Shown here one piece after another: positions 12,570 through 53,841 of a stretch of DNA of 64,000 nt. Under the pieces are notes generated by a model that saw only the letters and a list, made by a program, of their open reading frames with translations, had not been told where the DNA came from and did no database searches. The stretch spans positions 2,657 to 66,656 of the forward strand of contig JAVEXG010000005.1 in NCBI GenBank assembly GCA_034004115.1, in the 5' to 3' direction. Origin of the DNA: Bacteroidales bacterium. GTDB taxonomy: Bacteria > Bacteroidota > Bacteroidia > Bacteroidales > VadinHA17. Within the stretch, counting starts at the first letter, position 1. Every line of letters starts with the position of its first letter. Both the position numbers and the translations under genes were made by a program.

Positions 12570-12611
12570 AGAAAAACAGTTTAATTAAAGTTGCTGGTTA
12601 CTGGTTGCTGC

Positions 12612-13862
12612 TTACTCATTTGCCAGTGCCTCCGAGAAATGCCCCTGAAGCGTTTCAAGCGGAAGTATTGGCGACTGTCCCAGCGGGCAAAGCGAGCTCC
12701 TGGCTATCTGCCGGGCGTGGATCACCATATCGTCGAGGATTGCAATCCGTTCGCCGGGGGCGGCCAGGGATAAATCCATCGACCGTTCATAAATATACGT
12801 TGTTCCGATTCTGCAGGGAACGCATTTACCGCAGCTCTCGTGTTTGAAAAAGCGCAGAATGCTCTGGATCATTGGAACAAGCTTTCTTTCACTTCCCATT
12901 ACAATCACAGCTCCCGAGCCAAGAGTTGCTCCCCGCTCCTTCAGCCGTTCGTAGCACATCGAAAGATCAGCAGAAGAGTAAGGAACGAAAGTGCCGGCAG
13001 CACCTCCCAGCAGAGCGGCTTTCCAGGGTTTCCCGTCGCGGGTTCCTCCAGCAAGATCGTTTATCAGATCATTCAGGATTGCCCCTGCCTCCACCTCGTA
13101 GCAACCGGGAAGAGCAACATCACCGCTTATCGTGAAAATTTTCGTACCGGGCGTCCTTTCGGTTCCCGACGACCTGTACCATGAACTACCGTTTTCAATG
13201 ATCCCCGGGATGTTAGCCAGCGTCTCGACATTATTGACAAGGGTTGGCTGTCCCCACAGACCCTTTTCGGCCGGGAATGGCGGTTTAATGCGCGGATATC
13301 CCCTCTTTCCCTCGAGCGATTCAAGGAGAGTGAGTTCCTCGCCGCAGAGGTAGGAGCCTGCGCCCGGTTTTATCTCAAGATCAAAAGAAAAACCGCTGCC
13401 CAGAATATTGTTGCCCAGGTATCCCTTTTCGTATGCCTGATTGATAGCACTCTGAAGCTTAATAATCGAATCATAGTATTCACCGCGGATATAAATATAC
13501 CCCTTCCCGGAGCTTATTGAGTATGCTGCTATGGCAATCCCCTCAATCAGCAGGTGGGGATTGGTCTCCATGATTATTCTGTCCTTGAATGTTCCCGGTT
13601 CCCCCTCATCGGCGTTGCAAACAACGTAATGGGTTATCCCGGAGTGTGATCCGGAAGCCGTCTGTTTCTTCACTCCCGTAGGGAATCCGGCGCCGCCCCT
13701 GCCCCGGAGTCCTGATGCAAGCACCTCTTCAACAACCCTTTCCGGACCATCCTCAAGAGCCCTGGCCAGGGCGCGGTATCCCCCGGCATCAACATAATCG
13801 ATAATGCTGCAAGGATTTATCCTGCCTGACGATCCAAGTATAATGCGCTTTTCCTTAATCAT
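12612..13862 (-). CDS. NuoF-like NAD(H)/FMN/4Fe-4S subunit (FDH beta/diaphorase)
   Basis: 416 aa with 'GLRGRGGAGFPTG', 'CNADEGEPGTFKDR' and a C-terminal 'ESCGKCVPCR'. It shares an ATGA overlap with the NuoE-like gene. Confidence 0.85.
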   Translation of the reverse strand: MIKEKRIILGSSGRINPCSIIDYVDAGGYRALARALEDGPERVVEEVLASGLRGRGGAGFPTGVKKQTASGSHSGITHYVVCNADEGEPGTFKDRIIMETNPHLLIEGIAIAAYSISSGKGYIYIRGEYYDSIIKLQSAINQAYEKGYLGNNILGSGFSFDLEIKPGAGSYLCGEELTLLESLEGKRGYPRIKPPFPAEKGLWGQPTLVNNVETLANIPGIIENGSSWYRSSGTERTPGTKIFTISGDVALPGCYEVEAGAILNDLINDLAGGTRDGKPWKAALLGGAAGTFVPYSSADLSMCYERLKERGATLGSGAVIVMGSERKLVPMIQSILRFFKHESCGKCVPCRIGTTYIYERSMDLSLAAPGERIAILDDMVIHARQIARSSLCPLGQSPILPLETLQGHFSEALANE

Positions 13863-14350
13863 TTCGATGGAGGATAAGTAAGTTTCAGCTCATCCAGGAC
13901 AGCTGCCAGCGATTCGCGGGTAAGGTAGCCATAGACCTTCCGGTTGATCATCATAGCCGGAGCAACATCGCAGATACCCAGGCATTCGGCCTCCTCAACA
14001 GTAAAAAGACCGTCGGCAGTGGTTTCACCCGGACGGATGTGAAGCAAGGAGGCAAGCATCTCAAGAATATCAGCCGATCCCAGCATATTGCATACCGGAG
14101 AGTTGCATACTCTTAAAATATAACGCCCTCTCGGTTTAAGGCTGAACATTGAATAATAACCGGCAACACCGTACACCCAGGAAAGATTTACATTAAGGTA
14201 GCGGGCTGTGGCACTCAGAGCCTCCTCTGAGAGATAGTTCTGAGGATGACTATCCTGAAGAGCATGAAAGATTGATAACAAGTTAGCCTTATCGGGGCTG
14301 AATCCGGAAATAATTTCCAGCTGATCCATTGCAATTCGTTTAATCTGCAA
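13859..14350 (-). CDS. NuoE-like 2Fe-2S subunit (FDH gamma)
   Basis: Thioredoxin-like 2Fe-2S pattern 'RVCNSPVC ... CLGICDVAP'. The start is either TTG 14350 or ATG 14329. Confidence 0.8.
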   Translation of the reverse strand: MQIKRIAMDQLEIISGFSPDKANLLSIFHALQDSHPQNYLSEEALSATARYLNVNLSWVYGVAGYYSMFSLKPRGRYILRVCNSPVCNMLGSADILEMLASLLHIRPGETTADGLFTVEEAECLGICDVAPAMMINRKVYGYLTRESLAAVLDELKLTYPPSK

Positions 14351-14389
14351 AAGATACAGAATTTTTTAAAAGGACTAAAACATTCAATT

Positions 14390-15070
14390 ATGATAAATAT
14401 CCATAAAGCCGAAGAAATCCGGAGCAGAATGGATAACTTTACTCCAGGCACAAGGTCAAAAGCACAAATAACCAGCAACCGGGTGGAACGATCAGGAATC
14501 GGAGATATCACAGCCATAGTGCTTGCAGGCGGGCTCAGCAAAAGGATGGGCGGTCCGGACAAAAGCATGCTGCCGGTAAACGGAGTGCCCATGATCCAGC
14601 ACATCGTGAAGCAGCTTGAAAAACATTTCAGGAAAATAATAATAGGAGGCGACGAAAAAAAGTACAGTTTCCTGGGGCACAAAGTAGTACCAGACGAATC
14701 TTCAGGCTCAGGTCCCCTGATGGGAGTATATTCATGTCTGGCGAGATCTGACACAGACCTGAACTTCATTACCGCATGCGACATCCCGGAGATCAGAGTA
14801 GAATTTATTGAAAAGATGATTGAAATATCGGAAGGAGCCGATATAGTGATGCCGGTAAGCGAATCAGGAGAATACGAGCCGCTCCATGCCCTTTACCGCC
14901 GGACAGTATTGCCGGCAGCAGGGAAGCAGCTTGGAGAAGGCGGGCTAAAGCTTTCCGGGCTGGCAGGAAAGGTTAAGACCAGGTACATCAGCTTTGATGG
15001 AGGAGGATGGTATCACAATCTCAACAACAAGGATGACTACGAAAGATACAAAGGTCCGGCTACCGGGTGA
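14390..15070 (+). CDS. mobA: molybdenum cofactor guanylyltransferase
   Basis: 'AIVLAGGLSKRMGGPDKSMLPVNG' is the MobA nucleotide-binding motif. The gene is divergent from the FDH operon. The true start may be the ATG at 14429. Confidence 0.8.
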   Translation: MINIHKAEEIRSRMDNFTPGTRSKAQITSNRVERSGIGDITAIVLAGGLSKRMGGPDKSMLPVNGVPMIQHIVKQLEKHFRKIIIGGDEKKYSFLGHKVVPDESSGSGPLMGVYSCLARSDTDLNFITACDIPEIRVEFIEKMIEISEGADIVMPVSESGEYEPLHALYRRTVLPAAGKQLGEGGLKLSGLAGKVKTRYISFDGGGWYHNLNNKDDYERYKGPATG

Positions 15071-30581: not shown

Positions 30582-31271
30582 TCATTCATGCGTTTTTCTG
30601 TAAAGACATTCTGTCCTCCGGCACGAACTGCAGGGATACGGATCGAAGTTTACATCTGCTCCCATGCCGATCAATCCGCTGACCGACTTTTCAGGGTTCA
30701 TAAGCGCCGAAGCGTTGAGACTGACTCCGCAGGAATTTCCGGGCATGAGTTCAAACAACCCGTGCTGTTCCGATACGTCCCATCCGCAATACCCCGGACT
30801 ATACCGGTTTGTAACCCTTAAACCTGAGATTTCAGCAGCTTTCCTCACTTCCTGAAGAACCAGCAGGGATGCACGTTCCGCAATCTCACTTCCTATCATG
30901 TCGTAAATATAGGAGGCCAGGGGATCTCCGTCTTCCATGGCCTTCCTGCAGAGTTTTTCAGGTTCCGGACCTGCCGTACAGATAAAGACGGCAAATGATT
31001 CTGCTTTCCTCACCTGTGAAAAGACAACATCTTTAAGACTAAAACCGGCCCCATGGATTATTACTGATTTCGCGGCATTCTTCCATTTCTCAACAGGATA
31101 TATCCTGTATTCGGCTTTTGCTGAACATACAGGGGCAACCTTGCCGATCAGCTCACGGATCAGACCGGAGAAATCATCAGCCTGATATCCTTCACCGTAA
31201 CCGAGTAGTCTGCCTATCCGTTCGCCATCGACGCCAAGTTCTGAAAAATCATATTGAAATGTGCCCATCAT
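30582..31271 (-). CDS. methionine-synthase activation (AdoMet-binding, Met_synt_B12-like) domain protein, stand-alone
   Basis: 229 aa. 'RYSPGYCGWDVSEQHGLFELM' and 'MNPEKSVSGLIG' resemble the MetH reactivation domain. The gene overlaps the stop of metVF. Confidence 0.6.
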   Translation of the reverse strand: MMGTFQYDFSELGVDGERIGRLLGYGEGYQADDFSGLIRELIGKVAPVCSAKAEYRIYPVEKWKNAAKSVIIHGAGFSLKDVVFSQVRKAESFAVFICTAGPEPEKLCRKAMEDGDPLASYIYDMIGSEIAERASLLVLQEVRKAAEISGLRVTNRYSPGYCGWDVSEQHGLFELMPGNSCGVSLNASALMNPEKSVSGLIGMGADVNFDPYPCSSCRRTECLYRKTHE

Positions 31272-32710
31272 TCCTGATCCAGTCCGGCTTCACGGACAAT
31301 CTTTCCAACAACATCTTCCCATCCCAGCGACATAAGGTGAATCCCGCTTATACCCTTTTTTTTCCTTAATGCCGTAATAATTTCAAGTGTTATTGCTATT
31401 CCCTCCTCACGGGCTCCGTCTCCTGCTTTTTCCATGCGACTGAGTATCTTTTCAGGAAGGTACACTCCGGGAACCTTCTCATGGAGGTAAAGCGCAGCCT
31501 TATAGCTTTTAAGCGGTACCAGCCCCACAAGAATACTTACCTTTCCGAGGACATTCCTCCTTTCAAGCTGTTCGAGCCAGGGGTCAAGCCTTTCCGGTTC
31601 GAAAATTATGTTTGTCTGAAAGAACTGGGCACCGGCGTTAACCTTTTTCTGGTCCCTTATTGCCTGAAGTTCAGGGTCAAGTGCAAAGGGTGTAGTTGCA
31701 GCACCAAGAAAATATGTGGGCGGATACTTCATCTTTCTACCGTCGAGGTAGATGCCCTCATCCCGCATTCTGCGGAGAATCCACAGCATCTGCACCGAAT
31801 CGAGATCGTTGATGTTCATATCGCTTGCCGGAGGAGGTCCCACTATGGGACTGTCTCCTGTGACACACAGTATGTTTCTTATCCCGAACTGTCCCGCTCC
31901 GATTGCATCCGCCTGCAGTGATATTCGTGTTGAATCGCGGGCGGCGATCTGAAATACAGGTTCCGCATTCAGATCGACTGCAACTTTGCAGCAGGCCAGT
32001 GCTGACATCTTCGGGATAGCTGATGAAGCATCAGTGAAATTTATTGCCTTTACATAAGGTCTTACCAGCTCTATGTCATTTTTAAGCTTTTCGGAAGAGG
32101 CACTCAGCGGCGGGGTCACTTCCGTGGCAACCACGAAGCGGCCTTCCCTGAGACTCTTCTCCATCTCCGAGGCCGGCTCCCTGTAAGCGGCCGGGTGATA
32201 CTCTGAATCGCCGTTCCACCATACTGGCTGCCTTACAGTTCTGAAAACCGAATCCCAAACCTGTTTTTTAAGCTCCTTGTCGCGCGAAAACAGCGATCCG
32301 ATGAATCTTCCGGTGCCTGTTCTTCCGATCTGACTGAATACATCAGCCCAGGTTTCGGTGCCTGTCCTGCTCCAGTCGAGTGGAGGCAGGACCTCCAGGA
32401 GAGTATCCTCACGTCCGATCTTCCTGGCCCGATAGTATATCGCGTGCCAGACGCATCTTCTTGTCGGGTCGACATAGCATTGTCCGTCGGGAGTGACACC
32501 ACCACAGGGTCCGTTTCTGAGACCTTTCGGGCACTCCATGCAGCATATGAAGGCTGTCTCCTGAAGAAGGCAATTGCCGCACATCCGGCAGCCCCATACC
32601 GGGCCCTTGACAATTATCTCGATCTTTTCACGGAAACGCTTTCCGAAAGTCTCCCTCTTGAACGGATAAAAGGGGGGTTGCCAACGACGGGCAGGCTTGA
32701 TAGCAGACAT
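31268..32710 (-). CDS. metF: fused MetV-like zinc-ribbon domain + methylenetetrahydrofolate reductase (MetF)
   Basis: The N-terminal 'CRMCGNCLLQETAFICCMECPKGLRNGPCGG' is an MTHFR_C/MetV-type Cys cluster. The C-terminal roughly 290 aa form an MTHFR TIM barrel. Confidence 0.75.
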   Translation of the reverse strand: MSAIKPARRWQPPFYPFKRETFGKRFREKIEIIVKGPVWGCRMCGNCLLQETAFICCMECPKGLRNGPCGGVTPDGQCYVDPTRRCVWHAIYYRARKIGREDTLLEVLPPLDWSRTGTETWADVFSQIGRTGTGRFIGSLFSRDKELKKQVWDSVFRTVRQPVWWNGDSEYHPAAYREPASEMEKSLREGRFVVATEVTPPLSASSEKLKNDIELVRPYVKAINFTDASSAIPKMSALACCKVAVDLNAEPVFQIAARDSTRISLQADAIGAGQFGIRNILCVTGDSPIVGPPPASDMNINDLDSVQMLWILRRMRDEGIYLDGRKMKYPPTYFLGAATTPFALDPELQAIRDQKKVNAGAQFFQTNIIFEPERLDPWLEQLERRNVLGKVSILVGLVPLKSYKAALYLHEKVPGVYLPEKILSRMEKAGDGAREEGIAITLEIITALRKKKGISGIHLMSLGWEDVVGKIVREAGLDQE

Positions 32711-32742
32711 ATATTAAGTTATTATAACTGAAGTTTAGGGCT

Positions 32743-33585
32743 TCAGGAATTGCGGCTTTGAAAATACTCAACAAATCTGATGGCAAAGTCATCCCTTCCC
32801 AGAACAAGATCGGCAGCCCGGGCGGCAGATGTTGATTTTTCAGGATTTGCTATTGGGCAGGTCACTCCGCAATAAACGGCAAGTGTCATGAAAGCCGCGT
32901 TAAGCGACTCCCTGTCGGGCAGCCCGAATGATATGTTGCTTGCTCCCATGGTTATGTTCATACCCAGCTTCCGGTGCAATTGTCGGATAGTCTCAAGTGT
33001 GACCACGCAGGCCTGAGGTTCGGCGCTTACGGCCATCGCCAGTGGATCGGCAATTACATCCTCAGCCCTGATTCCGGCCGCAACGGCTCTGTCGATAATC
33101 TTTTCTATTATCAACACCCGCTTTTCCGGATCGTTTGTGATCCCTTCATCATCCATGCACAAGCCTATGATCGCAGCACCATACTCCTTTGCAACGGGAA
33201 TGAGAGTCCTGAGGGACTCCTCCTTGCCGTTAACCGAATTGATAAGACATTTGCCTGCAGAAACCTTAAGCGCGGCTTCGATGGCTGACGGATTCGGGGA
33301 ATCGAGACAAAGGGGAATGTCAAAATTATCCTGTATGGCTGTCACAACTTCCGGAAGAAGCTTCGCATCATCAACCCCCGGATACCCGACATTAACATCG
33401 AGTATATCGGCGCCGGCCTTTATCTGGCTGGCTGCCAGTTCAAGCACATAGGAAAAATCTCCTTCCTGAAGGGAGGAGACCAGTTTCCGGCGGCGGGTCG
33501 GATTAATCGATTCGCCAATTATGATTACAGGACCATCGGTATCGATGATCACCTCCCTGGTCCTGCCTGAAAGAACTGTCTTCAT
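32743..33585 (-). CDS. pterin-binding methyltransferase (methyl-THF:corrinoid methyltransferase, AcsE/MetH-pterin-domain-like)
   Basis: 'IIGESINPT..', 'ADILDVNVG', 'LCLDS', 'LINSVNG' and 'GASNISFGLP' are DHPS-like pterin-binding motifs. The start was moved to ATG 33585, 2 nt after the upstream stop. Confidence 0.8.
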   Translation of the reverse strand: MKTVLSGRTREVIIDTDGPVIIIGESINPTRRRKLVSSLQEGDFSYVLELAASQIKAGADILDVNVGYPGVDDAKLLPEVVTAIQDNFDIPLCLDSPNPSAIEAALKVSAGKCLINSVNGKEESLRTLIPVAKEYGAAIIGLCMDDEGITNDPEKRVLIIEKIIDRAVAAGIRAEDVIADPLAMAVSAEPQACVVTLETIRQLHRKLGMNITMGASNISFGLPDRESLNAAFMTLAVYCGVTCPIANPEKSTSAARAADLVLGRDDFAIRFVEYFQSRNS

Positions 33586-33587
33586 GA

Positions 33588-34256
33588 TTAAACTGCAAAC
33601 TGTTTCAGATAATTTACTGCACCCTGCGGATCGGGGGAATAGAAATCGGCGCCAATCTTTTCGCAATACTCCCGTGTAACCGGAGCCCCGCCAATAAGTA
33701 TCCTGATTTCAGGATGCTTCTCCTTCAATGCAGCAACGGTCTTTTTCATATTCTCCATTGTAGTCGTGAGAAGGGCCGAAAGCCCTACAAAAGCGCCCGG
33801 ATTTTCCTCAATTGCCCTGAGGAACTTATCGGAGCTGACATCCACTCCAAGGTCGATAATCTCCCATCCGCCTCCCTCGATCATCATTGCAACCAGGTTC
33901 TTTCCTATGTCGTGCAAATCGCCGGAGACGGTGCCAATAATGAATTTCCCCTTCCGTTTGGTCTCGCCCGACTGAAAGAAAGGCTTCAGATGCTTCATGG
34001 AGCTGTTCATAGCCTTTGCAGCCATCAGCATCTGGGGAACATAGATCTCCTTACGGCTGAATCGTTCACCAACAGCAGCCATCGCAGGTATAAGCGCCTC
34101 ATCGAGTATCCTGGCAGGACCCAATCCTTCTTCTATAGCCAGTTTCGTAATCTCATCCGCTCCATCCTGCCCCTTCATTCCGGGAGGGTAAGGCGAAGCC
34201 TTGTCCGTTTTGCCTGACTCAACACACAGTGCGATCCGGGCCAGTATATCATCCAT
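33588..34256 (-). CDS. corrinoid (B12-binding) protein with cap domain
   Basis: Carries the DxHxxG motif 'SGDLHDIGKNLV', then 'GLSALLTTTM' (SxL) and 'ILIGGAPVT' (GG). Confidence 0.85.
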   Translation of the reverse strand: MDDILARIALCVESGKTDKASPYPPGMKGQDGADEITKLAIEEGLGPARILDEALIPAMAAVGERFSRKEIYVPQMLMAAKAMNSSMKHLKPFFQSGETKRKGKFIIGTVSGDLHDIGKNLVAMMIEGGGWEIIDLGVDVSSDKFLRAIEENPGAFVGLSALLTTTMENMKKTVAALKEKHPEIRILIGGAPVTREYCEKIGADFYSPDPQGAVNYLKQFAV

Positions 34257-34351
34257 AACTAAAATGATTGGTGCAATTTCGTTCTGAAAACCTTTAAGTC
34301 AATAAAAGCACGAAAATAATAAAATCAAAAGTAATTAATAATATTTGTTCA

Positions 34352-34365
34352 TGCAACCGATTGCA
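34352..34365. promoter_or_regulatory. LacI-type palindromic operator, site 3 (tGCAACCGATTGCa)
   Basis: Over 14 nt (ATGCAACCGATTGC) it is identical to the reverse complement of site 1. It lies 18 nt upstream of the minus-strand -7 box TACTTTTG (34333->34326) in front of the corrinoid operon. Confidence 0.6.
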
Positions 34366-34479
34366 AAATTATTTTAATTAAGATTTTTTAACCTTGAACG
34401 ACATTGCTTACATGAACTTCACCTATTTACCGCTGGCTCTTTTTACAACAGATTCTGACTTTCCTTAATTTGCAGGATT

Positions 34480-34529
34480 CAACACAAATTTCTTATCTTG
34501 TACTTTCTAAAAAATCAACTGACTTGAAA
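34480..34529 (+). repeat. 50-bp direct repeat, copy 1
   Basis: CAACACAAATTTCTTATCTTGTACTTTCTAAAAAATCAACTGACTTGAAA. It is 48/50 identical to 34971-35020. Confidence 0.9.
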
Positions 34530-34624
34530 ATTGCATCTCTTTTCCTGTTTTATGCGGTTTTTATGAACCCAAAAGAGTAACTGGCATACATCTAATCTAT
34601 TATGTAAAGTTTTAATGAAAAATT

Positions 34625-34886
34625 GGGTGTCTCGACCTGTGATTTTTTGGATGTTTGTTCGTCATGGTATGGGCAGTAACCGGGATCTCCAGCCTTGAGG
34701 GCTGGCCTTCCAGTAGCCCCGGTCCCATCCGGGGTGGGGGGCAATAATACCAATCCGACCCCGGAGGGGTGGCCTTCAATTTTCACATGTAATTGAAAGT
34801 CAACCCCTCCAGGGTTGTTCATCGTGTGTGGTGCTATCTTCCCGGGGTGAGACCCGGGCTACTGGAAGTCGACACCCCAGGTGTCG
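34625..34886. ncRNA. candidate structured RNA or MITE-like element (class unknown, strand unresolved)
   Basis: A GC-rich island in an AT-rich spacer. A perfect 13-bp long-range helix joins 34707-34719 and 34856-34868. Perfect local hairpins lie at 34689-34705, 34717-34734, 34761-34813 (nested 34775-34797), 34841-34858 and 34870-34886. Confidence 0.3.
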
Positions 34887-34970
34887 GAATAAGTTGAATT
34901 AATGTTTGGTCCGGTAGAAGTTCCTGAAAATATTAAACTCATCTTAACTTTGGGTGTCTTTCTCACAAAA

Positions 34971-35020
34971 CAACACAAATTTCTTATCTTGTACTTTCCA
35001 AAAAATCAACTGACATGAAA
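34971..35020 (+). repeat. 50-bp direct repeat, copy 2
   Basis: 48/50 identical to 34480-34529. It ends 87 nt before the 35108 start codon. Confidence 0.9.
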
Positions 35021-35107
35021 CCTCCATGTATTAGCATACACAAACAAAATAATATAATAATCACTTACATGGAGGTTCCATCATACCATTAAAATCAAAA
35101 TTTTATA

Positions 35108-36634
35108 ATGATGAAAACTATATCTCTTCTGTTCTGCCTTATGCTGTCGGGGACTGTCATGGCCCAGACTACTGCCACAGGAATATTTCAGGGAAATGCA
35201 GACATCGGGAATCCCGCACTAAAAGGCTCAGCCTCATACAACCCTGCCGATCAGTCCTATTTGCTGAAAGGATCAGGTTATAACATCTGGTTTGAAAGAG
35301 ATGAGTTCCGCTATGTTTTCAACCAGATCGAGGGTGATTTCATCCTCACTGCCAATTTCCGCTTTGAAGGCCAGGGAACAGATCCACACAGGAAAACCGG
35401 CTGGATGATAAGGGCTTCGGAAGATGAAGATTCCCAGCATATCTCAGCTGTGGTCCATGGCGACGGACTTACCGTGATGCAATGGCGCGATTTCAAGGGT
35501 GCTGAAATGAAGGACCCTGAAGATGAATTGTTTGCAAAGGGTTCCGGCTATGAAATAATCCAGCTCGAAAGGGCCGGAAAAATTATTTTCATGAGGGCGG
35601 CAGTTGCCGGTAAGCCTTTTGAGAATATCGGCTCTTACGCAATGGAAAATATGCCCGATAAAGTCCTTGCAGGATTGTTCATCGGCTCTCACAATCCAGA
35701 GGTGACTGAACAGGCCACCATCTGGAATGTAAGGATCGACAAGCCGGTCGGAGACAATTACAATGCCTCCAGGGACGGAGCTGTGGGATGCCGTCTTGAA
35801 ACCATGAATGTCTTCGACGGAAAAAGAACAGTGATACATGAAAAACAGGGAAGATTTGAGGCTCCGAACTGGATGCCCGACGGTAAACAACTGCTTTTCA
35901 ATATGGACGGATTAATGTACAAAATCCCTGTAACGGGAGGCGCTATAAGCCAGCTGAACACAGGCACGGTTAAAAGAAACAATAACGACCACGGAATATC
36001 CTTTAACGGAAAACTGCTTGCTATAAGCAGCTCCAAGGATGATGCAGCCGGAAAAGGCTCGGCAGTGTACGTTGTGAAGCTGAAAGGCGGGGAACCAAGG
36101 CTCGTTACCCCCGAAACACCCTCCTACTGGCACGGCTGGCACCCCAACAACAAGGAAGTGATTTATGTCGCCCAGCGCAAGGGGATACCCGTTTACAATA
36201 TTTACCGCAATTCGATAAAGGGAGGAAAGGAAGTGGCCCTGACCGATATTCCTGAAGGCGAACACGTTGACGGCTGTGAATATTCGCCCGACGGTAAATA
36301 TATTTACTACAACGGCAGTCATACCGGAAATATGCAGTTATGGCGCATCAATGCCGACGGAACAGGAAGGGAACAGCTTACCTTCGATGACTACAAAAAC
36401 TGGTTCCCCCATATTTCACCCGACGGAAAATGGATAGCTTTCATCTCATTCCCTCCGGATATCGAAAAGAACAGCCATCCATCATACAAGAGAGTCATGC
36501 TGAGGCTGATGCCTGCAGGGGGCGGTGAGCCGAGGGTGATTGCATATCTCTACGGCGGACAGGGAACCATAAACGTTCCATCGTGGTCGCCTGACAGCAA
36601 GCAGATTGCATTTGTCAGCAACTCGGGAAATTAA
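35108..36634 (+). CDS. secreted protein: lectin/glucanase-like N-domain + TolB-like beta-propeller
   Basis: Signal peptide. The C-terminal PD40-type repeats are 'YSPDGKYIYY', 'ISPDGKWIAFIS' and 'WSPDSKQIAFVS'. Confidence 0.6.
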   Translation: MMKTISLLFCLMLSGTVMAQTTATGIFQGNADIGNPALKGSASYNPADQSYLLKGSGYNIWFERDEFRYVFNQIEGDFILTANFRFEGQGTDPHRKTGWMIRASEDEDSQHISAVVHGDGLTVMQWRDFKGAEMKDPEDELFAKGSGYEIIQLERAGKIIFMRAAVAGKPFENIGSYAMENMPDKVLAGLFIGSHNPEVTEQATIWNVRIDKPVGDNYNASRDGAVGCRLETMNVFDGKRTVIHEKQGRFEAPNWMPDGKQLLFNMDGLMYKIPVTGGAISQLNTGTVKRNNNDHGISFNGKLLAISSSKDDAAGKGSAVYVVKLKGGEPRLVTPETPSYWHGWHPNNKEVIYVAQRKGIPVYNIYRNSIKGGKEVALTDIPEGEHVDGCEYSPDGKYIYYNGSHTGNMQLWRINADGTGREQLTFDDYKNWFPHISPDGKWIAFISFPPDIEKNSHPSYKRVMLRLMPAGGGEPRVIAYLYGGQGTINVPSWSPDSKQIAFVSNSGN

Positions 36635-45836: not shown

Positions 45837-46757
45837 ATGCCACTCAATATTTCAGATAATCTTCCGGCAGTCAGGATCCTTGAAAACGAGAACATATTCG
45901 TTATGAAGGAGACCAGGGCAGTTCATCAGGATATAAGGCCACTGCAGATTCTGATCTTCAACCTTATGCCCGTTAAGATCACAACCGAAACCCAGATATT
46001 GAGGCTCCTCAGCAATACGCCCCTTCAGGTTGAGATCACCCTGATCAACACCAGCATGCACCTTTCGAAGAATACCCCCAGGGAGCATCTTGACTCATTC
46101 TACAAGACATTTGACGACATTGCTCATCACAAGTTTGATGGCCTGATAATTACGGGCGCCCCAATAGAGCATCTGGAATTCGAGGAGGTTGATTACTGGG
46201 ATGAGATGGTGAGGATAATGAACTGGGCCGATCAGCATATAACCTCAACATTGTACATCTGCTGGGCATCCCAGGCCGGCCTTTGGCATCATTACGGGAT
46301 CCCGAAGTATATGATGGACGAAAAGAAATTCGGTGTCTTCAGTCACAGGATATACAATAAGAAACATGTTCTCACAAGAGGCTTCGACGACGATTTTCTC
46401 GCCCCGCACTCAAGATATACCGAGGTGAGAAAAGAGGATATTGAAAGAGTGAGCGACCTGGAGATACTTGCCGACTCAGATGAAGCGGGCATATACCTGC
46501 TGGCTTCGCGCGACCTTAAAAGGGTATTTGTGACAGGCCATTCCGAATACGACCCACTGACGCTTAAAGAGGAATATGAACGCGATATTGCAAAGGGACT
46601 CGATATAAAAATTCCAAGGAACTATTTCCTCAATGATGATCCCCGCTGCGAGCCTGTTGTGAAATGGAGAAGCCATGCCAGCCTTCTGTTCTCAAACTGG
46701 CTTAACTATTGTGTTTACCAGGTTACCCCTTTTGTGCTCGAAAACGGGAAACGGTAA
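45837..46757 (+). CDS. metA: homoserine O-acyltransferase (MetA family)
   Basis: '[13 protein letters not shown]', 'DGLIITGAP', 'CWASQAGL' (catalytic Cys) and 'HSRYTEV'. Confidence 0.9.
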
Positions 46758-49000: not shown

Positions 49001-50041
49001 CTATGCCCAGGATAATTTCTTCTTAAAAGCCAGGGCTACATTTACCAGAAGTATTAAAACGGGAACTTCAACCAAAGGACCGATGACTGTCGCAAAAGCA
49101 ACCTGAGAATTAATCCCGAAGACAGCCACACCCACAGCGATTGCAAGTTCAAAATCATTGCTTCCTGCCGTGAAAGCCATGGTTGCTGATTTTTCATATC
49201 CGGTTCCAATCCATCTGGCAATGAAGAATGTGGAGAAGAACATTACTGCAAAATAAATAGTGTATGGAACAGCTACCCTGAGGACATCCATCGGCAGCTT
49301 TATTATGTTTTCACCCTTCAGCGAGAACATAACGAAAATTGTAAAAAGAAGAGCTATGGGTGTGAGCCAGGATACTTTGGGAATAAATTTTCCATAATAC
49401 CATTCATCATTTTTAACTCTTCTCAGAATAGTGTTTGTAATTAATCCTGCAAGAAAGGGTATCCCCAGATAGATCAGTACGGTAACAGCAATTTCGGATA
49501 TTGACACCTCAACCACCGAACCGCTTAATCCGAAAAATGTCGGAAGAATTGTTACGAAAAAATACGCATACACGGAGTAAAGGAACACCTGAAACAGGGC
49601 ATTGAAAGCCACCAGGCCGGCAGCCAGCTCAGTGTCGCCTTTTGCAAGGTCGTTCCATACAAGAACCATCGCAATGCACCGGGCAAGTCCGACAAGAATG
49701 ACTCCAACCATCAGATCCGGATGATTGTGAAGGAACAGGATTGCCAGAAGGAACATCACGATGGGTCCGATGATCCAGTTCATCGATAATGACAGGCCCA
49801 GCAATCTGAGGTTTTTGAAGACCAGCGGAAGTTTTTCATACCTCACTTTTGCCAGCGGCGGGTACATCATGAGAATAAGACCTATGGCAATGGGTATATT
49901 CGTGGTGCCTGAACTTAATGAATTCCAGAAACCCGAGATTCCCGGCCAGAAATAGCCAATCAACACTCCGGCAAACATTACAAGAAATATCCACAGGGTA
50001 AGATACCTGTCGAAGAATGAGAGTCGTCTGGTGGTATTCAT
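49001..50041 (-). CDS. acr3: arsenite efflux transporter, ACR3 family
   Basis: '[14 protein letters not shown]' N-terminus, 10-TM BART fold and '[12 protein letters not shown]' (conserved Cys). The start was moved to ATG 50041. Confidence 0.9.
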
Positions 50042-50055
50042 TGTGGTAATTTGGT

Positions 50056-50104
50056 AATTTGAAAATTCGGCAATTTGAAAATGAAGAAGAAAGATTTTCA
50101 AATT
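50056..50104 (-). repeat. TTTTCAAATT array A (arsM-acr3 spacer), including an 11-bp inverted pair
   Basis: Gene-sense copies lie at 50065->50056 and 50081->50072. An inverted copy lies at 50095-50104. Positions 50072-50082 and 50094-50104 form a perfect 11-bp hairpin across the arsM stop codon. Confidence 0.85.
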
Positions 50105-50904
50105 CTCTTTTCTCCGGATACCGTTATGCTGAAGATTCCTGCAAGGTCATTCCCGGGCTGGGTTGTTCCCGGATGATCAGAATACTCAGACAGAATTGAA
50201 TCGGGAAGTTCAATCTCCTTTTGCTTATGGACTTTAAGATTATCGAATCCTGCTTCTTTAATGAACTTCAGATATTCGCTTATTTCGCTTGCGCCGGATA
50301 CGCATCCCACATACATCTCTGCATCTTTCTGAATCCTTTCCGGCAGAGTGCCTTTAACAACAACATCAGAGACACAAAAATGAGCACCCGTTTTAAGTAC
50401 CCTGAATATTTCACTGAAGGCTTTGGATTTATCCGGGACAAGGTTCAATACACAATTGGAGATAACTACGTCAAACATATTCTCAGTGAAAGGCATTGAT
50501 TCAATATCCCCGGGGAAAAATTCAACATTGTCGTACTTAAGCTTCTTACAGTTTTCCCTGGCTTTGGCTACCATCTGTTCTGTCAGATCAAGGCCTGTCA
50601 CCTTTCCGGTCTCACCTACTATTGCCCTGGCGACAAAACAATCATTGCCTGCACCGCTTCCAAGGTCAAGAACATGGTCTCCCTTTTTTATTCCGGCATA
50701 GTCCGTAGGAATGCCGCAGCCAAGACTCAGATCAGCATCAGGGTTGTAGCCTTCCCTGTTTTCATAACTATCGCTGAATATTGTCAGATCGGGTCCGGAG
50801 CAGCAACAGGATGAGCTTCCGCAACAGCCATTCTCTTCAATATCCTGTTCGGCAATCTTGCCGTATTTTTCTTTTACAATTTCCTTCAGGTTTTCTGGTT
50901 TCAT
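50098..50904 (-). CDS. arsM: arsenite S-adenosylmethionine methyltransferase
   Basis: SAM motif '[11 protein letters not shown]', an N-terminal Cys cluster '[11 protein letters not shown]', and 'SNCVLNL' and 'GCVSGA' cysteines. Confidence 0.85.
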
Positions 50905-50918
50905 AATATTACAGGTTG

Positions 50919-51359
50919 TTATTCAGTAAGTTTAATAAGAATATTTACCGCATCGGATACATATTTTTCACACCTGATATCGAATAAATTCCGTTCTTCG
51001 ATAAGTTTATGATCCTCGGGATTGTTAATATCAAGCCCATCCAATAAATCGCGGCAATTCACCGATCCGTTAAGTTTTTTAAATTCATCAAAGAACTTCC
51101 TTGTTTTCAGGTAGGTATCACTCTTTTTCTCTTCAGGGTCGTTCATTCCTTTACCATATCTTAAGCCCAGCACCATCAGTGCACCCGTAATGGCACCGCA
51201 AATATGCTGCTGACGGCCCATTCCTGCACCGAAGGCAGTAGCAATCCTGAGACTCTCATCCTCGGATAATCCGTAGTCGGGTCCAAATGCAGTCAGAACC
51301 GACTGTGAACAGTTAAAATGACCCCTGAAATAATTGATTGCCGTAGTCTGCTTATCCAT
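50919..51359 (-). CDS. C_GCAxxG_C_C family redox protein
   Basis: Shows 'FNCSQSV', 'ICGAITGA' and a C-terminal 'NCRD..' / 'RCEKY' Cys pattern. Confidence 0.75.
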   Translation of the reverse strand: MDKQTTAINYFRGHFNCSQSVLTAFGPDYGLSEDESLRIATAFGAGMGRQQHICGAITGALMVLGLRYGKGMNDPEEKKSDTYLKTRKFFDEFKKLNGSVNCRDLLDGLDINNPEDHKLIEERNLFDIRCEKYVSDAVNILIKLTE

Positions 51360-51783
51360 TTATCTCCGCTTTTATAGTATTTAAATAGAGTGTCCTGAAG
51401 TCATCCTTAATCAAGTCACGGATTCTCCTGAATTCACTCAAAACATATTCATCTGTTCCTGTCCTTCGGGAGGGATCTTCATATCCCATATGCAGGCGGT
51501 GCTTCACTTTGCCTGTGAATACCGGACAGGTCTCATTTGCCTCATCGCACACTGTGATAACATAATCCCATTCATCACTAATGTACTTGTTTGCATTCTT
51601 TGGATAGTGGCTGCTGATATCTATTCCGGCTTCAGCCATGACTTTTACGGCCGTTAAATTAATACTTCCGGCGGGAATGGTGCCTGCTGAATGCACTTCA
51701 ATTCTCCTGTCGAATGACTGAAGGAAGCCATGAGCCATCTGACTGCGGCAACTGTTTCCGGTACAAAGAATAAAAATTTTCAT
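51352..51783 (-). CDS. arsC: arsenate reductase, LMW-PTPase (thioredoxin-coupled) type
   Basis: P-loop 'CTGNSCRSQMA' plus the downstream 'CDEANETCP' cysteines. Confidence 0.85.
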   Translation of the reverse strand: MKIFILCTGNSCRSQMAHGFLQSFDRRIEVHSAGTIPAGSINLTAVKVMAEAGIDISSHYPKNANKYISDEWDYVITVCDEANETCPVFTGKVKHRLHMGYEDPSRRTGTDEYVLSEFRRIRDLIKDDFRTLYLNTIKAEING

Positions 51784-51853
51784 CCTGTGTGGTTTGCAGT
51801 TGATTTATCAAAACTGGGAATAATTGTCTTTTTCTTGCAAATTTATAAAATCA

Positions 51854-51871
51854 TTTCGTAATTTTGCGAAA
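51854..51871. promoter_or_regulatory. imperfect palindrome TTTCGTAATTTTGCGAAA upstream of arsR-1
   Basis: It lies 22 nt upstream of the arsR-1 ATG, in the arsC/arsR divergent spacer. It matches the perfect palindrome at 59955-59974 at 16 of 18 positions. Confidence 0.45.
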
Positions 51872-51892
51872 CATCAAACTATATATTTTATA

Positions 51893-52255
51893 ATGTCAGC
51901 AAAATTAGAATTTACACAGGAAGTTCAGAGGATCGCCGGATTTTCAAAGGCTCTCAGTCATCCTGTGAGAGTATACATTTTGCAAAAACTCTCCAAGATG
52001 GGCTCCTGTTGCTACAGCGGGGATCTGGTCGAAGAACTCCCGGTGGGCAGGTCCACCCTTTCACAGCATCTGAAGGAACTGAAATATGCAGGGCTGATAC
52101 AGGGAGAAATCAATCCGCCCTATATTAAATATTGTATCAACAGGAAGAACTGGGAAGAAGCCAGACAGCTTTTTCTTTCATTTCTCAGTGAAGGTGATGC
52201 AGGAGTAATAAACTGCGAATTGAATGAATTCTCAGGCAGCAAATCCCCCAATTAA
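51893..52255 (+). CDS. arsR: ArsR/SmtB-family transcriptional regulator (copy 1)
   Basis: 'FSKALSHPVRVYILQKL', a 'CC' metalloid-site-like pair and 'STLSQHLKELKYAGLI'. The start was moved to ATG 51893. Confidence 0.85.
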   Translation: MSAKLEFTQEVQRIAGFSKALSHPVRVYILQKLSKMGSCCYSGDLVEELPVGRSTLSQHLKELKYAGLIQGEINPPYIKYCINRKNWEEARQLFLSFLSEGDAGVINCELNEFSGSKSPN

Positions 52256-52259
52256 CTTA

Positions 52260-52337
52260 TTTTCAAATTAGCACATTTTCAAATTGATTTTTCCATTTTC
52301 AAATTCTCAAATTCTCAAATTCTCAAATTTTCAAATT
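52260..52337 (+). repeat. TTTTCAAATT array B with an 8-nt tandem run (ATTCTCAA x3)
   Basis: Copies start at 52260, 52276, 52296 and 52328. The last copy ends 4 nt before the ATG at 52342. Confidence 0.9.
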
Positions 52338-52341
52338 ATCT

Positions 52342-52581
52342 ATGGACATAAAGATTTTAGGAACAGGCTGTCCCAAATGCATTACCCTCGAAAAAGTTAC
52401 CCGCGAGGCTGTTGCAGAAACAGGTATCGATGCAACAATCGAAAAAGTGGATGACATAGTTAAAATATTGGAGTACAGGATTATGCATACGCCCGGACTG
52501 GTTATTAACGGGAAAGTAGTCCTCAGCGGACAGGTGCCAACGGTAAACAAGGTGAAAGAAATTCTCATTCAAAACCAATAA
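52342..52581 (+). CDS. small thioredoxin-fold protein (redox-active disulfide protein 2 type)
   Basis: 79 aa beginning 'KILGTGCPKC'. Confidence 0.75.
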   Translation: MDIKILGTGCPKCITLEKVTREAVAETGIDATIEKVDDIVKILEYRIMHTPGLVINGKVVLSGQVPTVNKVKEILIQNQ

Positions 52582-52592
52582 CTCAGGAAACC

Positions 52593-53021
52593 ATGAAGAA
52601 ATTCAGATTAATTATTGCAATGTTGATGTTTGTCCCTTTTGTTGCATGCAACTCACAGCAGGCGAGTAAACAGGCAGAATCTTCGGACAGCAACTCCGAT
52701 AAAATTGAAGCTTATTATTTTCATTTCACTGCCCGGTGTGTGACGTGCAATACGATTGAGGCAAAAGCAAAGGAGAATCTTCAGACACTATATCCGAACC
52801 AGTTTAACCAGGGATTGATAACATTTCAATCTTTGAACCTTGAAGAATCAGTTAACAAGCCGCTTGCAGACAAACTTGGTGTTTCAGGACAGACTCTTCT
52901 TATAGTGAAGGGAGACAAGAAGGTCAATCTCACCAACGAGGGCTTCCTGTATGCGGTTGCCAAACCCGAAAAATTCAGGGAGATAATCAACGAGAAGGTT
53001 GACGGTCTGCTGGCTCAGTAG
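52593..53021 (+). CDS. lipoprotein with CxxC (thioredoxin-like; possibly ArsF-family)
   Basis: Lipobox 'FVACN' and 'FTARCVTCN'. It is paired with a CcdA-like gene, as in loci I recall being annotated ArsF/ArsG; that naming is from memory only. Confidence 0.4.
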   Translation: MKKFRLIIAMLMFVPFVACNSQQASKQAESSDSNSDKIEAYYFHFTARCVTCNTIEAKAKENLQTLYPNQFNQGLITFQSLNLEESVNKPLADKLGVSGQTLLIVKGDKKVNLTNEGFLYAVAKPEKFREIINEKVDGLLAQ

Positions 53022-53025
53022 CTAA

Positions 53026-53724
53026 ATGGAATTTCTGACAAATCTGCTGGATAACAGCACCATGCCGTGGCTGACGGCATTGCTGCTGGGTCTTATGACT
53101 GCCATAAGCCCCTGTCCGCTGGCCACAAACATCACTGCTATCGGATTTATAAGCAAAGACATTGAAAACCGCAACAGGGTATTCATCAACGGCCTGGTCT
53201 ATACTCTTGGCAGGGCAATCACCTATACTGCAATAGCACTGATAATCTTCCTTGGAGCTGATCAGCTGAAGTTTGGGGGATTCTTTCAGCGATATGGGGA
53301 GAAGATCATTGGTCCGTTGCTGATAGTTATAGGTTTATTCATGCTTGATATTATCAGAATAAAATTTCCGGGATTTAACAGGCTGACATCAGGGATGCAG
53401 GATAAAAAGAAGTGGAGGTACGGGGATGCACTGCTGCTTGGATTGCTTTTTGCCCTTGCATTCTGCCCCTACAGCGGCGTGCTGTATTTCGGCATGCTTG
53501 TCCCGCTTACTGTTGCCAGTGTCTCAGGACTTTACCTCCCGGTCATCTTTGCAGTGGCAACTGGAATTCCGGTGATAATAATCGCATGGGTACTTGCCTA
53601 TACAGTTTCCGGGATCGGTAATGTATACAACAAGATTAAGGCATTTGAGCTATGGTTCAGACGGATAATTGCCATTCTGTTCATTGTCGTCGGAATTTAT
53701 TATATCATAAGGATATATGTGTAA
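53026..53724 (+). CDS. CcdA/DsbD-like membrane thiol-disulfide transporter (possibly ArsG-family)
   Basis: Six TM helices, with 'AISPCPLATN' and 'AFCPYSG' Cys-Pro motifs in TM1 and TM4. Confidence 0.6.
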   Translation: MEFLTNLLDNSTMPWLTALLLGLMTAISPCPLATNITAIGFISKDIENRNRVFINGLVYTLGRAITYTAIALIIFLGADQLKFGGFFQRYGEKIIGPLLIVIGLFMLDIIRIKFPGFNRLTSGMQDKKKWRYGDALLLGLLFALAFCPYSGVLYFGMLVPLTVASVSGLYLPVIFAVATGIPVIIIAWVLAYTVSGIGNVYNKIKAFELWFRRIIAILFIVVGIYYIIRIYV

Positions 53725-53749
53725 TCGTTTTACGCGGCATGCATTATTA

Positions 53750-53790
53750 GGTATTCGGTAATCGGTATTCGGTAATCGGTAATTCGGTGG
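53750..53790 (+). repeat. tandem repeat GGTATTCGGTAATC x2 plus a degenerate third unit
   Basis: 53750-53763 equals 53764-53777, followed by GGTAATTCGGTGG. Confidence 0.9.
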
Positions 53791-53799
53791 GTACAGACA

Positions 53800-53841
53800 T
53801 TTTCAAATTTTCAAATTGCCTCATTTTCAAATTTTCAAATT
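53800..53841 (+). repeat. TTTTCAAATT array C
   Basis: Copies start at 53800, 53808, 53824 and 53832. The last copy ends 3 nt before the ATG at 53845. Confidence 0.9.

What the first reader, a model, noticed from the sequence alone, without database searches (positions are those of the whole stretch)
30582..34256. MetH dismembered into four genes, lacking the homocysteine module and carrying a fused MetV-MetF
The minus-strand operon encodes four proteins in order. First is a B12-binding cap+Rossmann protein with DxHxxG. Second is a pterin-binding methyl-THF:corrinoid methyltransferase. Third is a single polypeptide joining a MetV-type Cys-rich domain (CRMCGNC...CMECPKGLRNGPCGG) to an MTHFR barrel. 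Fourth is a stand-alone MetH-reactivation-domain-like protein. Start and stop codons overlap or lie within 2 nt (31268-31271 and 33585-33588), which implies translational coupling. No homocysteine S-methyltransferase domain or other substrate-specific methyltransferase (MT1) lies in or next to the operon. The module therefore moves methyl groups between THF and Co(I), but its substrate partner is unknown. MetV is normally a separate subunit in the acetogen MetVF enzymes I know of, so the fusion is noteworthy.
Basis: partly seen in the sequence, partly recalled or inferred. Interest (0 to 1): 0.65.

Follow-up and report, generated by a model that had tools for sequence, protein, structure and literature searches.

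The report
Split B12 methionine synthase operon
This four-gene operon of an uncultured anaerobic Bacteroidales bacterium makes methyl-folate and loads the methyl group onto a vitamin-B12 carrier protein, most likely for methionine synthesis together with a separately encoded homocysteine-binding subunit; it is a widespread rearrangement of known parts, not a new kind of system.

Summary
Four co-directional minus-strand genes encode a corrinoid protein, a pterin-binding methyl-THF:corrinoid methyltransferase, a fused MetV-MetF reductase and a stand-alone MetH-type reactivation protein. Their junctions are tight. No homocysteine or other MT1 domain lies in the 64-kb window or 10 kb beyond either end.

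The interpretation needs correcting.
- The MetV-MetF fusion is common: at least 565 GTDB species genomes and thousands of proteins.
- The operon order is complete and colinear in 59 of the 80 closest Bacteroidales species.
- A good partner candidate exists. A stand-alone ~294-aa homocysteine S-methyltransferase with intact zinc cysteines is common in Bacteroidales MAGs.
- In some relatives this gene sits directly upstream of corrinoid-protein and reactivation genes. In one Lentimicrobiaceae MAG, all five components lie within 8.4 kb.
- One metagenomic protein fuses a 53%-identical MetV-MetF to a complete MetH.

Best reading (about 0.65): a multi-subunit cobalamin-dependent methionine synthase with its own ferredoxin-type methylene-THF reductase. 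I could not show the homocysteine subunit in this organism's own genome. The main rival is a general methyl hub serving other methyltransferases. Novelty: a new variant of a known kind. Interest is moderate.

The parts
33588..34256 (-). Corrinoid (B12-binding) carrier protein, 222 aa. It has a cap domain plus a Rossmann domain with DxHxxG (D113, H115, G118).
   Evidence: PF02607 and PF02310. The best NCBIfam scores are MtgC_2 181.6 bits and pyl_corrinoid 168.6 bits against metH 126.3 bits, all below their cut-offs. It is 32% identical to the E. coli MetH Cob domain. The motif is at least 95% conserved across 81 homologues.
32743..33585 (-). Pterin-binding methyl-THF:corrinoid methyltransferase, 280 aa. 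It starts at the ATG 2 nt after the upstream stop codon.
   Evidence: PF00809, E 4.6e-31. NF005719 scores 266.9 bits against a cut-off of 259. The junction was read.
31268..32710 (-). Fused MetV-MetF methylene-THF reductase, 480 aa. The MetV domain spans aa 40-114 and has 8 invariant Cys. A linker of about 70 aa follows, then the MTHFR barrel at aa 183-476.
   Evidence: PF12225 and PF02219. C41, C44, C47, C56, C60, C69, C78 and C86 are invariant in alignment A1. The segment GIRNILCVTGD / AGAQFFQT aligns to yeast MTHFR 6FNU.
30582..31271 (-). Stand-alone MetH-type reactivation (AdoMet-binding) protein, 229 aa. It has an R-x-SPGY motif and four invariant cysteines (C162, C214, C217, C222). Its start overlaps the MetV-MetF stop as ATGA.
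   Evidence: PF02965, 42.6 bits against a cut-off of 25. A family profile matches the T. maritima TM0269 structure 1J6R at E 3.1e-12. Invariant columns are listed. The junction was read.
34257..35107 (.). Upstream intergenic region, presumably holding the promoter. No riboswitch was detected. It carries a ~490-bp inserted repeat element.
   Evidence: The Rfam gathering scan and the E-value scan both found nothing meaningful. The sigma-70 and terminator scan found no more sites than shuffled controls. The insertion is described.

Best explanation
The operon encodes four of the five components of a multi-subunit, cobalamin-dependent methionine synthase coupled to its own methyl-THF supply.

1. 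The fused MetV-MetF takes low-potential electrons, probably from ferredoxin. They would pass through two predicted [4Fe-4S] clusters in the MetV domain to the flavin of the MetF barrel. This reduces 5,10-methylene-THF to 5-methyl-THF.
2. The pterin-binding methyltransferase moves the methyl group to Co(I) on the separate corrinoid protein.
3. A stand-alone zinc homocysteine S-methyltransferase (PF02574, about 294 aa), encoded elsewhere in the genome, passes the methyl group to homocysteine to give methionine.
4. When the cofactor is oxidised to Co(II), the stand-alone reactivation protein re-methylates it with S-adenosylmethionine and one electron. Its four invariant cysteines may bind a metal or Fe-S centre.

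Shown here: the domain identities, the conservation of gene order, and the linkage of the same component families with a homocysteine subunit in relatives.
Inferred: every catalytic step, the electron donor, and the presence of the homocysteine subunit in this particular organism.
For: Conservation of the operon:
- CoP-Fol-MetVF-Act is complete and colinear in 59 of 80 species loci. About 11 more loci are cut by contig ends.

Linkage to a homocysteine subunit:
- Rosetta stone: P0121 (1681 aa) has a MetV-MetF part 53% identical to the query. It carries PF12225, PF02219, PF02574, PF00809, PF02607, PF02310 and PF02965 in one gene.
- L081 (Lentimicrobiaceae MAG) holds Hcy-CoP-Act and Fol-MetVF within 8.4 kb.
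- Hcy-CoP-Act clusters occur in L088, L171, L172 and L175.
- Stand-alone PF02574 proteins are common in Bacteroidales or Prolixibacteraceae MAGs and keep the zinc cysteines equivalent to MetH C247, C310 and C311.
- In some contigs the Hcy gene is solitary, as this reading predicts for genomes of the window's operon type.

Other support:
- The reactivation protein is of the SAM-dependent MetH type, matching 1J6R (TM0269) at E 3e-12. It is not the ATP-dependent RamA/RACo type used by catabolic corrinoid systems.
- The homocysteine pathway gene metA (PF04204) lies 11.5 kb away in the window.
- Precedents: B. thetaiotaomicron BT0180 + BT0249 and the Burkholderia split (PMC7311316); the three-part MetH of Phaeobacter (PMC5764234); MtgC/MtgD/MtgE (PMC12478193).
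Against: - No PF02574 gene was found in the 84 kb of this organism that I could see.
- None of the operons with the window's gene order among the 80 loci has an Hcy gene within 10 kb; only the rearranged L081 does.
- The CoP and Act proteins that sit next to Hcy form a clade apart from the operon's CoP and Act. L081 CoP averages 65% identity to the operon CoPs, where about 79% would be expected at that MetVF divergence. The Hcy clusters could therefore be a paralogous system.
- CoP and Fol score higher against methylotroph or acetogen families than against MetH.
- No SAM, THF or cobalamin riboswitch lies upstream.
- I could not determine whether the genome also has a canonical MetH or MetE.
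Confidence: 0.65

Rival explanations
1. General methyl hub, possibly running in reverse. In this reading the corrinoid protein and the pterin methyltransferase exchange methyl groups between THF and several substrate-specific methyltransferases encoded elsewhere (URO-D/MtaA-like or MttB-like). Methyl groups stripped from environmental methylated compounds would enter THF. They would then be oxidised via MetV-MetF, or go directly to homocysteine.
For: - CoP and Fol best match methylotroph-type families.
- In relatives the stand-alone Hcy gene is paired with other methyl-donor methyltransferases. A URO-D family gene scoring best against MtaA/CmuA lies divergently next to Hcy-CoP-Act in L081, L088, L171, L172 and L175.
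- L092 reads CoP - URO-D - Hcy - CobW - Act - RACo. L102 and L103 read MttB - Act - CoP - Hcy.
- Formate-THF ligase follows MetVF in L082.
- An FDH-like gene pair lies in the window.
- MtgD is bidirectional in Ruegeria (PMC12478193).
Against: - No MT1 gene lies in the window or near any of the 80 operon loci.
- The operon has no RamA/RACo activator. It has only the SAM-consuming MetH-type reactivation protein, which suits low-flux anabolism.
- The P0121 superfusion ties this MetV-MetF clade to a complete MetH.
Confidence: 0.2
2. Second, redundant or conditional system. In this reading the organism has a canonical MetH of the Bacteroides BT0180 type elsewhere. The operon would then be an accessory methyl-THF and corrinoid module. 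It might serve a different cobamide or redox condition, or the Hcy domain of the canonical enzyme might take methyl groups from it.
For: - Bacteroides has a four-domain MetH plus a separate reactivation protein (PMC7311316).
- One MAG, fen_982, carries two copies of the operon (L051 and L070), so copy number is flexible.
- The operon never carries its own Hcy gene.
Against: - The operon is widely conserved with intact motifs in every component, which argues for a self-sufficient role.
- Stand-alone Hcy proteins are abundant in the same order, and a canonical MetH would make them unnecessary.
- Neither the presence nor the absence of a canonical MetH could be tested here.
Confidence: 0.1
3. Methyl-corrinoid donor for a core-MetE type (folate-independent) methionine synthase, rather than for a PF02574 protein.
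For: Core methionine synthases accept methyl groups from corrinoid proteins (PMC7857596).
Against: - MesB and MesC are confined to organisms with the Wood-Ljungdahl CoFeSP.
- No Meth_synt domain was found in the window.
- The comparative links found here are all to PF02574.
Confidence: 0.05

Closest known systems
Three-part split methionine synthase of Phaeobacter inhibens, also described as MtgC/MtgD/MtgE of Ruegeria pomeroyi (PMC5764234, PMC12478193)
   Same: It has a separate corrinoid protein, a separate pterin-binding methyltransferase and a separate Hcy-binding subunit. The corrinoid protein is not simply a MetH fragment. The hub can serve more than one methyltransferase.
   Different: - Reactivation there uses a RamA-like DUF4445 protein plus DUF1638. 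Here it uses a PF02965 SAM-dependent protein.
- Those organisms are aerobic Proteobacteria.
- No MTHFR gene lies in that operon.
- The Hcy subunit of the window organism has not yet been located.
Thermotoga maritima TM0268/TM0269 and Bacteroides thetaiotaomicron BT0180/BT0249, two-part MetH enzymes (Huang 2007, cited in PMC10293825; PMC7311316)
   Same: The stand-alone reactivation-domain protein is the same kind of component. The family profile matches the TM0269 structure 1J6R at E 3e-12.
   Different: - There the Hcy, Fol and Cob domains remain in one polypeptide.
- In the alignment TM0269 has Gly where the window protein has C162, and it ends before the C-terminal CxxCxxxxC motif.
MetVF-type methylene-THF reductase of acetogens such as Clostridium ljungdahlii and Eubacterium callanderi (PMC8515935, PMC8760232)
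   Same: It combines a MetF barrel with a Cys-rich MetV module (PF12225). That enzyme is reported to carry Fe-S clusters and to use reduced ferredoxin in vitro.
   Different: - Here the two parts are one polypeptide, with MetV at the N-terminus.
- The host is a non-acetogenic Bacteroidales bacterium.
- The gene sits in a methionine-synthase-like operon, not a Wood-Ljungdahl cluster.
YitJ-type Hcy S-methyltransferase-MTHFR fusions (NCBIfam PRK08645)
   Same: They join MTHFR physically to a methionine-synthesis module. The MetF part of the window protein scores best against this model, at 174 bits. Many such fusions appeared in the metagenome scan.
   Different: - The fusion partner there is the Hcy domain, not MetV.
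- The score is below the model's cut-off of 453 bits.

Membership tests
Cobalamin-dependent methionine synthase MetH (TIGR02082) | Zinc homocysteine-binding domain (PF02574) | tested here: not met
   It is absent from the four proteins at E <= 0.1. It is absent from the whole window and 10 kb beyond each end. tblastn was also negative.
Cobalamin-dependent methionine synthase MetH (TIGR02082) | Pterin-binding methyl-THF domain (PF00809) | tested here: met
   E 4.6e-31.
Cobalamin-dependent methionine synthase MetH (TIGR02082) | B12 cap plus Rossmann domain with DxHxxG | tested here: met
   PF02607 and PF02310. D113, H115 and G118 are at least 95% conserved.
Cobalamin-dependent methionine synthase MetH (TIGR02082) | AdoMet-dependent reactivation domain (PF02965) with the RxxxGY motif | tested here: met
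   42.6 bits against a cut-off of 25, as a partial match. P159, G160 and Y161 of N-R-Y-S-P-G-Y are invariant, and N155 is nearly invariant.
Cobalamin-dependent methionine synthase MetH (TIGR02082) | Equivalog score cut-off, with all domains in one polypeptide | tested here: not met
   The four proteins score 126, 142, no match at E <= 0.1, and 22 bits, in gene order (genes 1-4). The cut-off is 1010.85 bits. There are four separate genes.
Multi-part split methionine synthase (Phaeobacter / MtgCDE type) | Separate corrinoid protein and separate pterin methyltransferase | tested here: met
Multi-part split methionine synthase (Phaeobacter / MtgCDE type) | Separate Hcy-binding subunit in the same genome | not testable with these tools
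   It is present and linked in relatives (L081, L088, L171, L175). The rest of the source genome could not be searched.
Multi-part split methionine synthase (Phaeobacter / MtgCDE type) | RamA-like (DUF4445) reactivation | tested here: not met
   No RACo or DUF4445 domain was found in the window. A PF02965 protein takes that role.
MetVF-type methylene-THF reductase | MTHFR barrel with conserved catalytic residues | tested here: met
   PF02219, E 3.4e-29. E197 and Q365 are invariant in A1. The GD of ...CVTGD aligns to yeast 6FNU. The equivalence to E. coli E28, D120 and Q183 comes from my own knowledge.
MetVF-type methylene-THF reductase | MetV Cys-rich module (PF12225) able to hold two Fe-S clusters | tested here: met
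   86.4 bits against a cut-off of 23. Eight cysteines are invariant. Actual cluster binding was not tested.
MetVF-type methylene-THF reductase | MetV and MetF as separate subunits within an acetogenesis gene cluster | tested here: not met
   It is a single 480-aa polypeptide. No acs or cdh genes are in the window.
Catabolic corrinoid methyltransferase system (MT1-CoP-MT2-RamA) | Substrate-specific MT1 and an ATP-dependent activator next to CoP and MT2 | tested here: not met
   Neither is in the window, and neither is among the recurrent neighbours of the 80 loci.

The most novel reading that the evidence does not exclude
The operon could be a free-standing methyl-THF:corrinoid hub of anaerobic Bacteroidales, serving several interchangeable methyltransferases: the stand-alone Hcy enzyme, MtaA-like URO-D proteins and MttB-like proteins. 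It would link demethylation of environmental methylated compounds, methionine synthesis and ferredoxin-coupled C1 oxidation or reduction. That would make it an anaerobic Bacteroidota counterpart of the marine MtgBCDE system. The reactivation subunit might also carry its own Cys4 metal or Fe-S centre.
Probability: 0.2. Interest if true: 0.65.

Novelty: new variant of a known kind. Interest (0 to 1): 0.38.

Why it matters
If the best reading holds, hundreds of uncultured Bacteroidales species from digesters, fens and sediments make methionine with a MetH split into four separate proteins. These are coupled to a MetV-type reductase, presumably ferredoxin-dependent, that is otherwise studied only in acetogens.

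- This affects how automated tools call methionine and B12 dependence in these MAGs. A search for a full-length MetH would report a false gap.
- It places MetVF-type reductases in an anabolic role.
- The Cys4 motif on the reactivation subunit points to a possible variation in how Co(II) is re-reduced.
- The Hcy / URO-D / MttB clusters in relatives hint at folate-independent methyl sources for methionine.

None of this changes the known chemistry.

Tried and rejected
- **Riboswitch or leader upstream.** The Rfam gathering scan of the whole window found only a tRNA. The E-value scan of 34150-35200 gave only chance-level hits. The sigma-70 and terminator scan found no more sites than shuffled controls.
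- **Expression evidence.** The one run labelled RNA (X3) covers genes on both strands at a flat 36x on a 16-kb contig. It behaves like DNA and says nothing about transcription.
- **Finding the Hcy gene of the same organism.**
  - Extending the window by 10 kb on each side found nothing.
  - Laying four runs that hold the window onto L081 URO-D|Hcy-CoP-Act at 80% gave only short motif matches.
  - One URO-D-family contig tracks the window contig's depth in all four runs: 23.9/11.7/14.1/8.12 against 22.9/10.9/13.2/9.75. Its derived peptide matched none of the 120 best URO-D homologues, so its neighbourhood could not be read.
  - Matching contig lengths between the MetVF, Hcy and URO-D hit lists gave no shared contig with any locus that has the window's operon order.
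- **Structure of the reactivation protein.** The single-sequence model has pLDDT 38 and is unusable. No fold search was run.
- **A cryptic Hcy domain in one of the four proteins.** Rejected: Pfam gives no hit at E 0.1, and the protein lengths leave no spare room.
- **An MttB-like gene downstream in L071 and L078.** Rejected: the 492-aa ORF is an FGGY kinase.
- **Literature search for a described MetV-MetF fusion.** Nothing was found.

Full report
**1. Observation**

The four minus-strand ORFs exist as described. Pfam assigns them as follows.

| Gene (window coordinates) | Length | Pfam result |
|---|---|---|
| 34256-33588 | 222 aa | PF02607 + PF02310 |
| 33585-32743 | 280 aa | PF00809 |
| 32710-31268 | 480 aa | PF12225 (aa 40-114) + PF02219 (aa 183-476) |
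| 31271-30582 | 229 aa | PF02965, partial match above the cut-off |

- The second protein passes the NCBIfam cut-off for methyl-THF:corrinoid/iron-sulfur protein methyltransferase.
- The corrinoid protein has D113-x-H115-x-x-G118.
- Junctions read from the DNA are TAA-tc-ATG, a 32-nt spacer, and an ATGA overlap.
- I Pfam-scanned the ORFs of at least 180 aa that do not lie inside a longer ORF on the other strand, and also 10 kb beyond each end of the window. None carries a homocysteine S-methyltransferase, MetE, MttB, MtaB or URO-D domain.
- tblastn with the authentic E. coli MetH Hcy domain found nothing.
- The factual part of the finding is therefore confirmed.

**2. Host and surroundings**

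- Identical or near-identical contigs come from biogas, manure, bioreactor and landfill metagenomes.
- The closest GTDB genomes are Bacteroidales MAGs, including UBA6117 and MAGs labelled 'Rikenellaceae'.
- The flanking genes are sugar-utilisation and lipid genes. Their synteny is conserved across many relatives, and they have no C1 function.
- metA (homoserine O-acyltransferase) lies 11.5 kb away.
- No riboswitch precedes the operon.

**3. How common the pieces are**

- The MetV-MetF fusion is abundant. There were 4731 hits, and the best 120 are all about 480 aa with both domains.
- Several further 50%-identity clusters of fusions exist.
- Fusions outside the Bacteroidales clade sit in unrelated contexts. 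It is the Bacteroidales clade specifically that is embedded in this operon.
- Among the 80 closest species loci, 59 have CoP-Fol-MetVF-Act complete and colinear. About 11 more are cut by contig ends.
- The real exceptions are informative:
  - L071, L073 and L078 lack Fol.
  - L058 and L061 lack Act.
  - L082 reads CoP-MetVF followed by formate-THF ligase.
  - L038 has Fol-MetVF only.
  - L081 is rearranged (see section 4).

**4. The missing partner**

Three lines of evidence point to a homocysteine subunit.

- *A fused relative.* The nearest representative outside the query's own cluster is P0121, 1681 aa. Its N-terminal part is 53% identical to the MetV-MetF. It continues into a complete MetH with Hcy, Fol, cap, B12 and reactivation domains. 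It is a single called gene on a 37-kb contig.
- *A locus with all five components.* In the Lentimicrobiaceae MAG locus L081, a stand-alone 305-aa PF02574 gene lies directly upstream of the corrinoid-protein and reactivation genes. Fol-MetVF follows 3.5 kb downstream.
- *A widespread stand-alone Hcy protein.*
  - It has at least 120 cluster representatives of 61-100% identity. All are about 294 aa and carry PF02574 only. Those that carry an NCBI name are from Bacteroidales, Prolixibacteraceae or Bacteroidota MAGs.
  - The three zinc cysteines are invariant.
  - Its contexts are either Hcy-CoP-Act (L088, L171, L172, L175) or solitary (L089, L090).
  - A solitary Hcy gene is what genomes with the window's type of operon would be expected to have.

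**5. Complications**

- *Possible paralogy.* The CoP and Act proteins that sit beside Hcy form a clade separate from the operon's CoP and Act. They are also more divergent than the MetVF distance predicts. The difference may reflect lineage or paralogy, and I could not tell which without whole genomes.
- *Other methyl-donor partners.* In relatives the stand-alone Hcy gene is also paired with other methyltransferases.
  - A URO-D family protein that scores best against MtaA/CmuA lies divergently adjacent in five loci.
  - The URO-D and Hcy hit lists share contigs in at least 14 cases, judged by equal contig lengths.
  - L092 reads CoP - URO-D+thioredoxin - Hcy - CobW - Act - RACo.
  - L102 and L103 read MttB - Act - CoP - Hcy.
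- *Family affinities.* CoP and Fol score higher against methylotroph or acetogen families than against MetH.
- These facts keep alive a 'methyl hub' reading like that shown for MtgBCDE in marine bacteria (PMC12478193).

**6. Mechanism I commit to**

1. MetV-MetF makes methyl-THF from methylene-THF with low-potential electrons. This is by analogy with acetogen MetVF (PMC8515935, PMC8760232). Eight cysteines are invariant.
2. Fol methylates Co(I) on the corrinoid protein.
3. A separately encoded PF02574 protein methylates homocysteine.
4. Act repairs Co(II) with SAM.

Two points favour an anabolic, MetH-like role over a catabolic one. The reactivation protein is the SAM-dependent type, with its profile matching TM0269 (1J6R) at E 3e-12, and not a RamA/RACo activator. 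The P0121 fusion points the same way. My confidence is 0.65.

Act also has four invariant cysteines: C162, C214, C217 and C222. In the alignment TM0269 has Gly where the window protein has C162, and it ends before the C-terminal CxxCxxxxC. They may bind zinc or an Fe-S cluster, but this is untested.

**7. Comparison with what is known**

- Every individual split is already published:
  - Act split off in Thermotoga and Bacteroides.
  - Hcy split off in Burkholderia.
  - A three-way split in Phaeobacter and Ruegeria.
- MTHFR fused to a methionine-synthesis module is known from the YitJ type.
- New here is the combination: all four MetH functions on separate polypeptides, a fused MetV-MetF inside the operon, and the breadth of this layout across Bacteroidales.
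- I found no paper describing it.
- I rate it a new variant of a known kind, of moderate interest.

**8. What remains open**

- It is open whether this organism has the stand-alone Hcy gene, a canonical MetH, or URO-D/MttB partners.
- My attempts to answer this by contig extension, read laying and co-abundance failed or were inconclusive.
- A Pfam scan of the whole genome would settle it.

Noticed in passing
window 34480-35020 (upstream intergenic region of the operon): A ~490-bp insertion is flanked by 50-bp direct repeats (34480-34529 and 34971-35020, 96% identical). Its core is GC-rich and full of hairpins, with an imperfect internal palindrome at 34707-34868. Close relatives L008 and L012 have a single copy of the 50-bp site, so theirs is an empty site. 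In run X3 the core has ~1300x word depth against 36x for the flanks, and contigs break there. It is therefore a multicopy element, or possibly a very abundant RNA.
   Followed up: partly
L081:1918-2943 (-), L088:6802-7827 (-), L171:4722-5747 (-), L172:2060-3085 (-), L175:4808-5833 (-): A 341-aa URO-D family protein lies divergently next to Hcy-CoP-Act in five loci. It scores better against MtaA/CmuA methylcobamide methyltransferases than against HemE, though all scores are below cut-off. It is a candidate second methyltransferase using the same corrinoid protein.
   Followed up: partly
L092:1256-7915; L102:133-3863; L103:26-3385: These metagenome operons look like folate-independent routes from a methylated substrate to methionine. 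L092 reads CoP - URO-D+thioredoxin (540 aa) - Hcy - CobW GTPase - Act - RACo/RamA-like activator. L102 and L103 read MttB-family methyltransferase - Act - CoP - Hcy.
   Followed up: partly
window 30582-31271 (-), residues C162, C214, C217, C222: The reactivation protein has four invariant cysteines: one in PGYCGW and three in a C-terminal CxxCxxxxC. In the alignment the T. maritima TM0269 structure sequence has Gly at the first position and ends before the other three. They may form a metal or Fe-S site.
   Followed up: partly
window 9849-15070: An FdhA-like molybdopterin oxidoreductase with 2Fe-2S and 4Fe-4S domains (906 aa) lies next to a NuoF-like flavoprotein (416 aa) and a MobA-like gene. 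Together they look like a soluble NAD-linked formate dehydrogenase module.
   Followed up: no
window 45837-46757 (+): Homoserine O-acyltransferase (MetA, PF04204, E 3e-141). The organism therefore has at least part of the homocysteine pathway.
   Followed up: no
window 49001-55188 and L177:1-3885: A cluster that looks like arsenic or metal resistance: an ACR3-like SBF transporter, a SAM methyltransferase (ArsM-like), ArsR-type HTH proteins, thioredoxins, DsbD_2, an ArsP_1 permease and LMWPc.
   Followed up: no
window 56529-58979 (-): An 816-aa multihaem c-type cytochrome with weak matches to MtrC/NrfB/c7-type models. This is unusual for a fermentative Bacteroidales bacterium.
   Followed up: no
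L051 and L070 (both from MAG fen_982, PLMC01): One MAG carries two complete copies of the CoP-Fol-MetVF-Act operon on different contigs. This is either a real duplication or a mixed bin.
   Followed up: no
L065 (JBLNAO010000054.1, 3.2 kb): A Bacteroidales-like copy of the operon (67% identical) sits in a MAG labelled Chloroflexota. It is probably a binning contaminant.
   Followed up: no
Runs X2, X17, X5, X1 laid on L081:1930-1987: A contig carrying a URO-D-family gene tracks the depth of the window contig in four runs. Its derived sequence reads ...NHDRIIWSAGGG... and ends in VNEIKQT. The window organism therefore probably has some URO-D-family gene, but I could not tell which kind.
   Followed up: partly
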